This document shows, in pieces, positions 15,501 through 18,500 of a stretch of DNA of 64,000 nt. The position numbers are program-made. Numbering within the stretch: the stretch's first letter is position 1; each line of letters starts with the position of its first letter. The DNA is from Escherichia coli (GTDB lineage Bacteria; Pseudomonadota; Gammaproteobacteria; Enterobacterales; Enterobacteriaceae), in NCBI RefSeq assembly GCF_009931435.1, contig NZ_CP043414.1; one strand, written 5' to 3'.

Positions 15501-18500
15501 GGCGCGGCAGCTTCGTTAGGCTTGAGCCTGTTCACGTTGACATTACCGACTGTACCAGTGGCGAAATCTAACCAGGCGCAAGGAATGATAGACGTGCTCG
15601 GACTGCGTGCATTTGCACTGTTTAAGAACAGCAAAATGGCGATTTTCTTTATCTTTGCCATGCTGCTCGGGGCAGAACTACAAATTACCGGGATGTTTGG
15701 TAATACATTTCTCCACAGTTTTGAGAGTGTTCCAGAGTTTGCCAATAGCGTTGTTGTAACTCATGCTTCTATTTTGTTATCAATTTCTCAGATATCCGAA
15801 GTCTGCTTCATTCTTGCCATTCCCTTTTTCCTGAAAAAATACGGTATCAAAAATGTCATGCTGATGAGCATGGTGGCCTGGACGCTGCGTTTTGGTTTAT
15901 TCGCTTATGGCGATCCTTCATTCGGCGGTACCATTCTGTTAATTCTTTCGATGATTGTTTATGGCTGTGCTTTTGACTTCTTCAATATATCTGGCTCGGT
16001 ATTTGTTGAACAAGAAGTTGATCCATCGATTCGTAACAGCGCTCAGGGCGTTTTCCTGATGATGGCCAATGGTTTTGGTTGTATTCTGGGCGGTTTTATC
16101 AGTGGTAAAGTCGTCGATTATTTAACAACGGATGGCAATCCACAGTGGTCAACCATTTGGCTGGTATTTGCCGGATATTCACTGGTTCTGGCTCTCGCAT
16201 TTATGGTGTTGTTTAAATATAAACACAACAGTAACCCGACAACATCCGGTCATTTCGCCTGATACGGAATTTATCAAAATTAATAATGTTTTATAGGATT
16301 AGCAAAGGAGGATATTATGGCAAATCAATTGTATAACCAGTGTCGGGTTTATTGTGCACCCTGGCGATTAGATGCTTTGAATTTAAATGATATCATTGAT
16401 CAATGGATTGACGAGGGGCTGTTGCCGCCCCTGATCCATACTTTTCTTCCATATCGTGATGATGCCGGTGCCTCCAGTGAAGAAGAGATTTTTGTTAATG
16501 ATGTCGCGAATATGGACAATAGTGTTGGGGTTATCGGTTATTTCGATGGTGGAACCTATGATTCCGGTTGTGCATGGGAAGTAGGCTATGCATGGGCTTT
16601 AGGGATGCCTGTTCACTTGGTAACGACAGACTTTCTTATATGGGCAGCGGGGAATTCTTCAGAGTTTTACCCTATAAGTAAGCTGATGAATTATGTGGCA
16701 AAAGTGGTTTCGGTGTCAGATTCCGATGCTAGCATCAGCAACTATCGTGAACAAACCAACGATATCATCAAGCGTGCGTTGCAAATTCTTCAACAAAATT
16801 TAATCGCCGACTTCGGCACGACGATTACTCCCGCTGTACCGATTACGCCATTTCCGATTGAGTATGACTATTATCTTGATCCTAACTTTATGTATACCGA
16901 ACCCTCTCGGGGCTTACTGGAGAAAATCAAAGATGCGATCATTAGTGCAGGTAAGACTTTCATCGTTGGCGACAATATGAATGATATTGCGACTGATATT
17001 GATAACTTAAGAAAATCCAGACAGGCCATCTTTTATTCCGATACCTTTGAGCCGAATGTCGACACCGGTATTATGAATGGTATTGCCTATGCATTAGGAC
17101 AGCAATCGATAGTTTATTGTAGCAAGCAACAAAAGTATCAATCTGCGCTCGCGACAGATTATTTGAATTTAATGATTACCTGGTCGTCAACGGTGGCGCA
17201 TTCATTTGCGGAGCTTGAAACATTGATTGGTAACACAGAAAAATAATAGTTAATTTTACTGATTATCAGGTGAGTGATTGCCTGATAATCAGCTTTTGGT
17301 TAACCTCCAAAGATAATTATACGGCCGTTATATTTCTCTGCTGGGGAACGATATGATCGATTTCATAATCATATTGAATATCACAGAAAAATGTATTGGT
17401 CACTCGCGACTTTTTCTAGTTATAAAAAGATGCGACTCATATCTTACGAATAATGCATATTATAAGGACTTTCCATGACCCAACCTCATTTTTCACAAAA
17501 CCCGTGGTATTGCGCAGATATCATTCGTCGACATAAACCAGATTTTACCCCACGCGTGGTGTTTATTTTGGGATCGGGGCTGGGAGCGTTAGCTGAACAA
17601 ATAGAAGATGCTGTTGCCATTTCTTATAGCGATTTGCCGGGGTTTCCGGTGAGCACCGTACATGGCCATGCAGGAGAGTTGGTCCTCGGAGTGCTCTCTG
17701 GTGTGCCTGTAGCCTGCATGAAAGGTCGCGGTCATTTTTATGAGGGCCGGGGAATGACAGTCATGACTGATGCTATTCGCACGTTCAAGTTGTTGGGCTG
17801 TGAATTGTTGTTCTGCACCAACGCTGCAGGTTCGCTTCGTCCAGAAGTCGGTGCGGGTAGTCTGGTTGCGCTGAAAGATCACATTAATACGATGCCAGGC
17901 ACACCGATGACAGGCCTTAATGATGAGCGTTTTGGCGAACGCTTTTTTTCATTAGCGAATGCTTACGATGCTGATTACCGCGCCGTTTTACAAACCGTCG
18001 CGCAGGAAGAAGGTTTTCCGCTGACAGAAGGGGTTTTTGTTTCTTATCCGGGCCCGAACTTCGAAACGGCGGCAGAAATTCGCATGATGCAGCTGATTGG
18101 TGGCGATGTTGTGGGTATGTCTGTAGTGCCTGAAGTGATTAGCGCACGTCATTGCGAAATGAAAGTCGTTGCCGTGTCCGCAATAACCAATATGGCAGAA
18201 GGCTTAAGTGATGTGAAATTGTCGCATGCCCAAACCCTGGCTGCAGCAGAGTTATCACGGCAAAACTTTATTAATCTGATTTGCGGATTCTTACGCAAAA
18301 TCGCCTGAAAACAATAAAAATGGCCTCGCGGATGGGGCCATCTCACTGCGATAAGGAAATAAAACATGAATATCGCAACGCGTTTAAAGGTAATGTCTTT
18401 CTTACAATACTTTATCTGGGGGAGTTGGTTAGTTACCCTCGGCTCTTACATGATTAACACCTTACATTTTACCGGGGCTGATGTCGGTATGGCATACAGT

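What the first reader, a model, noticed from the sequence alone, without database searches (positions are those of the whole stretch)
17259..17298. Strong hairpin insulates the accessory module from xapA
A perfect 12-bp inverted repeat followed by a T-rich tract lies just after the NDT-like gene stop and ~180 bp before xapA, implying the module is a separate transcription unit rather than an extension of the xapAB operon.
Basis: seen in the sequence. Interest (0 to 1): 0.2.

Follow-up and report, generated by a model that had tools for sequence, protein, structure and literature searches.

The report
Terminator hairpin after accessory nucleoside operon
A conserved RNA hairpin with a short run of Ts sits just after a rare two-gene nucleoside module in E. 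coli and most likely ends that module's transcript before xapA's own promoter, which makes it an ordinary terminator.

Summary
A perfect 12-bp inverted repeat (17259-17270 / 17281-17292) extends to 15 pairs with G-U. It starts 12 nt after the stop of the NDT-like gene, is followed by CTTTTGG, and ends 182 nt before the xapA ATG. Chance does not explain it: 0.08 such repeats are expected per 64 kb, and the fold z-score is -5.9.

Nine distinct alleles from E. coli, E. albertii and a cryptic Escherichia clade were collected through the neighbouring gene, not through the hairpin. All keep the stem. Two independent compensatory double changes occur, and every other change but one (a lost terminal pair) gives a G-U wobble that pairs only in + strand RNA. 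A T-rich tail always follows the stem.

Downstream of the hairpin lies the homologue of the K-12 xapA promoter. A second copy of the same promoter box precedes the module's permease gene, here and in other genera where the module is not next to xapA.

Best reading: an intrinsic terminator that closes a separate permease-NDT transcription unit. In this allele the stem is AU-rich and the U tract is short, so some read-through into xapA is likely. No transcript data exist. It is a new instance of a known kind and of low interest.

The parts
14905..14979 (+). Promoter box of the accessory module. Blocks are ATTGAT (14909-14914), AATTGATAT, AAAAAGTATTGGTAA (TATTGG at 14947-14952), a 21-nt gap, and TATTTA (14974-14979). 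It is homologous to the K-12 xapA promoter region.
   Evidence: Alignments with the K-12 and Rb-3 yfeN-xapA intergenic regions and with other module copies. Function is inferred by homology.
15009..16262 (+). Nucleoside:H+ symporter gene, first gene of the module. It is 61% identical in amino acids to the locus's own XapB.
   Evidence: Pfam PF03825, E = 4e-165. RefSeq annotation of the IAI39 copy. Comparison with XapB.
16317..17246 (+). NDT-like gene (309 aa, two NDT-like halves), last gene of the module.
   Evidence: Pfam PF05014, E = 1.7e-16, with a weak second hit in the C-terminal half. RefSeq names it 'nucleoside 2-deoxyribosyltransferase'.
17259..17292 (+). Terminator stem-loop. The 12 perfect pairs are 17259-17270 with 17281-17292. 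Three further pairs (U-G, G-U, A-U) join 17271-17273 with 17278-17280. The loop is GUGA, 17274-17277.
   Evidence: Covariation in 9 alleles. Hairpin energy is -20.0 kcal/mol on the + strand against -15.5 on the - strand.
17293..17302 (+). T-rich tail CTTTTGGTTA. Transcript release is expected here.
   Evidence: The tail is T-rich in all 9 alleles, and much stronger (TTTTTGTTTTTTT) in E. albertii-type alleles.
17351..17426 (+). xapA promoter region. Blocks are ATCGAT (17355-17360), TATTGAAT (17372-17379), AAAAATGTATTGGTC (TATTGG at 17394-17399), a 21-nt gap, and TATAAA (17421-17426).
   Evidence: Homology to the K-12 xapA upstream region. K-12 has two XapR sites, one overlapping the -35 (PMC7205307).
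17475..18308 (+). xapA (xanthosine phosphorylase), first gene of the downstream unit xapA-xapB.
   Evidence: 90% amino-acid identity to K-12 XapA. Pfam PF01048.

Best explanation
The element is a Rho-independent (intrinsic) terminator that closes a two-gene operon made of a nucleoside permease and an NDT-like enzyme.

Proposed mechanism:
- RNA polymerase starts at the promoter box at about 14905-14979 and transcribes both genes.
- 12 nt past the stop codon it makes a 12-15-bp hairpin of about -20 kcal/mol.
- It then transcribes CUUUUGGUU. The weak rU:dA hybrid together with the hairpin releases the transcript at about 17297-17302.
- xapA-xapB is then expressed from its own promoter at about 17351-17426, which is homologous to the K-12 xapA promoter.

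Shown here: the hairpin, its non-random nature, its conservation by compensatory change in + strand RNA, the recurring T tail, and the two homologous promoter boxes.

Inferred: that transcripts actually end here, how efficiently they do so, and that XapR or its homologue drives both promoters. In this allele the U tract is short and the stem AU-rich, so I expect substantial but incomplete termination.
For: The hairpin is real and not due to chance.
- It is confirmed in the sequence, and the fold z-score is -5.9.
- 0.08 comparable inverted repeats are expected per window.

The stem is conserved as + strand RNA.
- Nine distinct alleles were collected via the NDT gene or protein, not via the hairpin.
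- 97.8% of pair cells are paired, against 14-57% when partners are slid.
- Two pairs carry double compensatory changes: C-G to U-A in Escherichia sp. E2593, and A-U to G-C in the SCPM-O-B-8794 lineage. Only 7 of 500 shuffles reach this.
- RNAalifold predicts the same structure independently.
- + strand hairpin energy stays between -14.7 and -20.0 kcal/mol, while the - strand energy falls as low as -3.4.

The tail and position fit a terminator.
- The tail is T-rich in every allele, up to TTTTTGTTTTTTT.
- The hairpin starts 12 nt after a stop codon and lies on the gene's strand.
- No long ORF covers it; only a 28-codon GTG ORF overlaps.

The flanking units look independent.
- The xapA promoter homologue lies downstream, and a paralogous box lies upstream of the permease gene.
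- The module with the same box occurs away from xapA in Citrobacter, L018 and L020.
- In L020 a canonical terminator follows the NDT gene.
Against: - There are no transcript or 3'-end data.
- The stem is AU-rich, with 5 G-C in the 12 core pairs.
- In this allele the U tract is only 4 U after a 1-nt spacer and is then broken by GG. One E. coli allele (LHM10-1) has CUUGUUG.
- By the classical hairpin-plus-tail discriminant of d'Aubenton Carafa, as I recall it from memory, this allele is about borderline.
- The hairpin sequence is not conserved outside Escherichia. In Citrobacter and L018 the region after the NDT stop has no clear canonical terminator.
Confidence: 0.75

Rival explanations
1. The hairpin forms in RNA but mainly stabilises the 3' end or marks a processing site, or it is a very leaky terminator. 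Most polymerases read through, so xapAB is partly expressed as an extension of the module transcript and there is little insulation.
For: The U tract is short and interrupted (CUUUUGG) and the stem is AU-rich in this allele. LHM10-1 has CUUGUUG. Both units carry the same promoter box, so co-expression would do no harm.
Against: All alleles keep a T-rich tail directly at the stem end. One allele lost the terminal pair in a way that lengthens the T run, which suggests the tail itself matters. A complete xapA promoter is retained downstream.
Confidence: 0.15
2. The palindrome is a DNA operator for a dimeric regulator, for example a LysR-type or other nucleoside regulator acting on xapA or on the module, and not an RNA element.
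For: Each arm is itself nearly palindromic (CTGATnATCAG). The inner part, CAGG-N10-CCTG, loosely resembles LysR-type sites such as the 16-bp HusR sites listed in PMC12844172. It lies about 60 bp upstream of the distal xapA promoter block.
Against: Substitutions in the arms give G-U pairs or compensatory pairs. These keep RNA pairing on the + strand but break DNA symmetry, and the - strand energy drops as low as -3.4 kcal/mol. The palindromy within each arm is lost in the SCPM-O-B-8794 allele. The spacing is 18 bp rather than the 16 bp of HusR sites. K-12 has no counterpart at this place in its xapA upstream region.
Confidence: 0.03
3. The repeat is a chance inverted repeat or a recombination or insertion scar at the edge of the acquired module, with no present function.
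For: It lies exactly where homology to the K-12 yfeN-xapA intergenic region begins, at about 17307. It is absent from E. coli genomes that lack the module.
Against: 0.08 are expected by chance. Pairing is maintained through 9 diverged alleles with two compensatory changes, while the flanks diverge freely. It is single-copy per genome and not a dispersed repeat. There is no Rfam match.
Confidence: 0.05

Closest known systems
Canonical E. coli Rho-independent terminators, for example those in this same window at 20602-20628 (after the xapR-like gene), 4295-4322 and 7250-7277
   Same: A stable stem-loop just after a stop codon on the gene's strand, followed by a T run. Hairpin energy is similar: -20.0 kcal/mol against -14.8 to -18.9.
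   Different: Those are short G+C-rich stems flanked by A6/T6, so they work in both directions. This one is a long (12-15 bp) AU-rich stem with a 1-nt spacer and only 4 U. It has no A tract upstream, so it is one-directional and probably weaker.
K-12 xapAB transcription unit, with a XapR-activated promoter in the yfeN-xapA intergenic region (Seeger et al. 1995 and Jorgensen & Dandanell 1999, as cited in PMC7205307)
   Same: The promoter blocks ATCGAT, TATTGAAT, TGTATTGGT and TATAAA, and their spacing, are kept upstream of xapA here. XapA is 90% and XapR 78% identical in amino acids.
   Different: K-12 has only the porin gene yfeN upstream. Here a second unit with the same promoter box, plus the hairpin, lies between the porin gene and the xapA promoter. 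This arrangement is found in 15 of 5426 complete E. coli genomes.

Membership tests
Rho-independent (intrinsic) terminator | A stable RNA stem-loop (typically 5-14+ pairs, G+C-rich, loop 3-8 nt) encoded on the transcribed strand | tested here: met
   12 perfect pairs plus 3 more, a 4-nt loop, -20.0 kcal/mol, z = -5.9. Caveat: only 5 of the 12 core pairs are G-C.
Rho-independent (intrinsic) terminator | A U-rich tract of about 7-9 nt directly 3' of the stem | tested here: inconclusive
   This allele has C-UUUU-GGUU, with 5 U in the first 8 nt and a tail score of 3.25. Other alleles range from CUUGUUG to UUUUUGUUUUUUU, with scores of 2.5-5.9. The tract is present but short here.
Rho-independent (intrinsic) terminator | Located downstream of a stop codon, at the end of an operon, and co-oriented with it | tested here: met
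   It starts 12 nt after the stop at 17244-17246, on the same strand. The next gene has its own promoter homologue.
Rho-independent (intrinsic) terminator | Selection on RNA pairing (covariation) on the sense strand | tested here: met
   97.8% of cells are paired, 2 pairs carry compensatory changes, the G-U changes pair on the + strand only, and slid controls give 14-57%.
Rho-independent (intrinsic) terminator | Transcript 3' ends and factor-independent release at the U tract | not testable with these tools
   No RNA-seq, Term-seq or in vitro transcription data are available for carrier strains.
XapR-type activated promoter (context of the hairpin) | Sequence homology to the K-12 xapA promoter region with its two XapR sites, one overlapping the -35 | tested here: met
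   Conserved blocks and spacing are present at 17351-17426 and also at 14905-14979. The site architecture comes from PMC7205307.
XapR-type activated promoter (context of the hairpin) | XapR binding and xanthosine-dependent activation | not testable with these tools
   This would need a gel shift, a footprint or a reporter assay.
Dispersed intergenic repeats (REP/BIME, ERIC, MITE ends) | Many copies per genome or in unrelated contexts | tested here: not met
   There is one place per genome in the 15 carrier genomes and none in the other 5411. The arms occur only at this site in the window. A metagenome pattern scan gave one true copy, and the rest were chance hits without a left arm. There is no Rfam hit.
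Palindromic DNA operator | Two-fold DNA symmetry conserved among homologous sites | tested here: not met
   The changes keep G-U pairs in RNA but break DNA complementarity. For example, in L148 the - strand energy is -3.4 kcal/mol.

The most novel reading that the evidence does not exclude
The hairpin could be a deliberately leaky or conditionally active terminator, for example one dependent on NusA or on translation. It would link two units that both carry the XapR-type promoter box. Read-through from the accessory permease/NDT-like module would then add to xapAB expression and alter the bistable xanthosine switch described for K-12.
Probability: 0.07. Interest if true: 0.35.

Novelty: new member of a known kind. 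Interest (0 to 1): 0.12.

Why it matters
On its own it matters little. It fixes the operon boundaries of a rare accessory nucleoside module, found in 15 of 5426 complete E. coli genomes and also in E. albertii. It shows that xapAB keeps its own promoter in these strains.

The more useful by-product is that the module carries the same promoter box as xapA wherever it occurs. This predicts that an uncharacterised permease and a tandem NDT-like enzyme belong to a XapR-type regulon. That prediction can be tested with simple reporter fusions.

Tried and rejected
- **Rfam scan:** a scan of 14500-18000 at E <= 1 found nothing.
- **Genome-contig scan:** a scan with the NDT-like protein returned only two close Escherichia loci.
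- **Metagenome scan:** a scan with the pattern GNGATTGCCTGATANNCAG returned about 120 loci. All but one were chance matches without a complementary left arm.
- **Primary XapR papers:** PMC93943 and PMC177358 are not held. The exact K-12 transcription start and XapR footprints could therefore not be read, and promoter anatomy rests on homology plus the summary in PMC7205307.
- **Literature on the module:** a search for nucleoside 2-deoxyribosyltransferase together with xanthosine phosphorylase found no paper.
- **Palindromic arms as paired operators:** I considered that each arm's own near-palindrome (CTGATnATCAG) signals two operators. I rejected this because it is not conserved in the SCPM-O-B-8794 allele and the central base differs in the complementary, hairpin-compatible way.
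- **HusR or LysR-type site:** considered after and rejected on spacing and on the substitution pattern.
- **Terminator for the minus strand:** rejected because there is no T tract on that side, no gene to terminate, and a weaker fold.

Full report
**Observation**

Window 17259-17292 reads CTGATTATCAGG-TGAGTGATTG-CCTGATAATCAG and is followed by CTTTTGGTTAA.
- The repeat finder reports the arms as 12 nt, 100% complementary, 10 nt apart.
- With G-U pairs the stem extends to 15 pairs around a GUGA loop. It is the top terminator-like site in 12000-22000.
- The 71-nt RNA folds at -24.6 kcal/mol, against -9.6 +/- 2.6 for dinucleotide shuffles (z = -5.9, 0 of 200 as good). The reverse strand folds less well, at -20.8.
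- Perfect inverted repeats of at least 12 bp with loops of 3-12 nt occur at four places in the 64-kb window. The mean in shuffles is 0.08.
- The hairpin survives in both the MFE and the centroid of a 201-nt fold.
- The stop codon of the upstream ORF is at 17244-17246 and the xapA ATG is at 17475.

The T tract is short: 4 T after a 1-nt spacer.

**Context**

The window is E. coli. It is 100% identical to strain R32_14_1F and 99.7% to IAI39 and CE10 over 14800-17480. The gene order, from Pfam and the RefSeq annotation of IAI39, is:
- ligA, ypeB, yfeH(-)
- an OmpK/Tsx-like porin gene (-), 13985-14752
- a nucleoside permease gene, 15009-16262
- an NDT-like gene, 16317-17246
- xapA, 17475-18308
- xapB, 18366-19622
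- a xapR-like LysR gene, 19697-20581
- tRNA genes

Only 15 of 5426 complete E. coli genomes carry the permease/NDT module or the hairpin, always once per genome. XapA is 90% and the LysR protein 78% identical to K-12 XapA and XapR. The module permease is 61% identical to the locus's own XapB.

**Comparative test of the hairpin**

I collected alleles through the NDT gene or protein, not through the hairpin, so the sample is not biased towards the structure. The sources were:
- four further E. coli alleles
- E. coli SCPM-O-B-8794 and E. albertii NBRC 107761
- Escherichia sp. E2593 and three metagenomic or genomic alleles

Nine sequences are distinct.
- On the 15-pair structure, 97.8% of cells are standard pairs. 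When the 3' partners are slid by 1-3 columns, this falls to 14-57%.
- Two pairs show changes on both sides: C-G to U-A at the terminal pair in E2593, and A-U to G-C in the SCPM-O-B-8794 lineage. Only 7 of 500 column shuffles reach this.
- Every other stem change is a transition that yields G-U. The single exception is in L148, where the terminal G became T. That removes one pair but lengthens the T run.
- RNAalifold predicts the same structure on its own.
- Because G-U on the + strand is C-A on the - strand, the + strand hairpin stays between -14.7 and -20.0 kcal/mol, while the - strand version drops as low as -3.4.

This points to selection on an RNA hairpin in the sense transcript. It argues against a DNA palindrome or a chance repeat.

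Every allele has a T-rich tail at the stem end: CTTTTGG, CTTTTTG, CTTGTTG, CTTTTAA, CTTTTTAAA, TCTTTGTTTTTTT or TTTTTGTTTTTTT.

**Not a dispersed element**
- The arms occur only at this site in the window.
- There is one place per carrier genome and none elsewhere in E. coli.
- No Rfam family matches.
- A metagenome scan with a degenerate right-arm pattern gave one true copy among chance matches.

**Transcription units**

The K-12 and Rb-3 yfeN-xapA intergenic regions align with the window's NDT-xapA spacer from about 17307 onward, that is, just after the hairpin. The shared blocks are ATCGAT, TATTGAAT, AAAnTGTATTGGT and, 21 nt further on, TATAAA. In the window these lie at 17355-17360, 17372-17379, 17390-17400 and 17421-17426.

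In K-12 this region holds the experimentally identified xapA promoter (PMC3141248). It has two XapR sites, one overlapping the -35 (PMC7205307). So xapA keeps its own promoter downstream of the hairpin. This is inferred by homology.

The same box also lies upstream of the module's permease gene, at 14905-14979. It is found upstream of the permease gene in every other copy of the module I could read:
- E. albertii-type alleles
- Citrobacter, where the module is followed by an adenine deaminase gene and is not next to xapA
- two metagenomic contexts, L018 and L020

In L020 a canonical bidirectional terminator, shared with a convergent efp-like gene, follows the NDT gene. In Citrobacter there is only a long-loop inverted repeat with a T-rich tail, and the scan finds no terminator. 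In L018 the nearest good hairpin belongs to the convergent gene.

The module therefore behaves as a self-contained unit of promoter, permease gene and NDT gene. In Escherichia its 3' end is the hairpin studied here.

**Mechanism and strength**

The best reading is an intrinsic terminator. This is shown at the level of sequence, structure and covariation, and inferred at the level of RNA 3' ends.

Canonical terminators in the same window are short G+C-rich stems flanked by A6/T6, with energies of -14.8 to -18.9 kcal/mol. This one differs. It has a long AU-rich stem with 5 G-C in the 12 core pairs, and it is one-directional. Its tail score is 3.25, against 4.1-5.9 for the E. albertii-type alleles.

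From general knowledge of intrinsic termination, U-tract length and the first U residues strongly affect efficiency. I therefore expect real but incomplete termination in this allele. This is an inference.

**Rivals**
- A leaky terminator or a 3'-end stabiliser is not excluded. It differs from the best reading only in degree (confidence 0.15).
- A DNA operator is disfavoured by the substitution pattern and by the lack of a K-12 counterpart. A loose resemblance of CAGG-N10-CCTG to the HusR sites of PMC12844172 fails on spacing.
- A chance repeat or an insertion scar is disfavoured by the chance estimate and by the compensatory changes.

**Verdict**

The completeness of the 'insulation' is untested. 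This is an ordinary kind of element, a new instance of an intrinsic terminator, and its interest is low.

The most useful side result is that the accessory module carries a xapA-type promoter box wherever it occurs.

Noticed in passing
window 14905-14979 and 17351-17426; L011 ~3260-3335; L018 ~300-350; L020 ~340-410: The same promoter box (ATYRAT, TATTGAAT, AAAnTGTATTGGT, about 21 nt, TATAAA) as the K-12 xapA promoter precedes both xapA and the accessory permease gene. It also precedes the module in Citrobacter and in two other contexts away from xapA. This predicts XapR-type control of the module.
   Followed up: partly
window 14856-14863 (- strand): An inverse copy of GTATTGGT points towards the OmpK/Tsx-like porin gene (13985-14752, - strand). 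The K-12 yfeN-xapA spacer keeps CCAATACA at the aligned position. The porin gene may share the regulator.
   Followed up: no
window 16317-17246: The NDT-like protein appears to be a tandem of two NDT-like halves, with a strong N-terminal and a weak C-terminal Pfam hit. It is rare: 35 clusters among 5.8 billion proteins. No close solved structure exists (best PDB hit 7m5h, E = 6.5e-4). Remote homologues at 41-56% identity sit in nucleoside-catabolism clusters with PNP, DeoC, IU-nucleoside hydrolase and Bmp ABC transporters.
   Followed up: partly
window 13747-13984 and 12748-20581: yfeR, which lies between yfeH and yfeN in K-12, is absent here. The whole stretch from yfeH to the tRNA genes is a variable region in E. 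coli, with several allelic arrangements. Some strains lack xapABR, and some carry a DUF1427 gene between xapB and xapR.
   Followed up: partly
window 4295-4322, 7250-7277, 20602-20628, 46982-47018: These are other strong perfect inverted repeats. The first three are canonical A-tract/stem/T-tract bidirectional terminators, and 20602-20628 lies just after the xapR-like stop. 46982-47018 is a 15-bp perfect repeat, TTTTATGACCACAAT...ATTGTGGTCATAAAA, that I did not examine further.
   Followed up: no
window 17400-17420 vs L002 (K-12) xapA promoter spacer: The HusR (YnfL) site reported in the K-12 xapA/yfeN intergenic region is TAGCGAGGTTGTCCCG (PMC12844172). It lies in the spacer between the TATTGG block and TATAAA in K-12. 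It is not recognisably conserved in this allele's xapA promoter.
   Followed up: no
window 17294-17312: The T tract UUUUGG can pair with CCAAAG (17307-17312) to form a weak second hairpin in longer folds. This is not conserved in E. albertii-type alleles.
   Followed up: no
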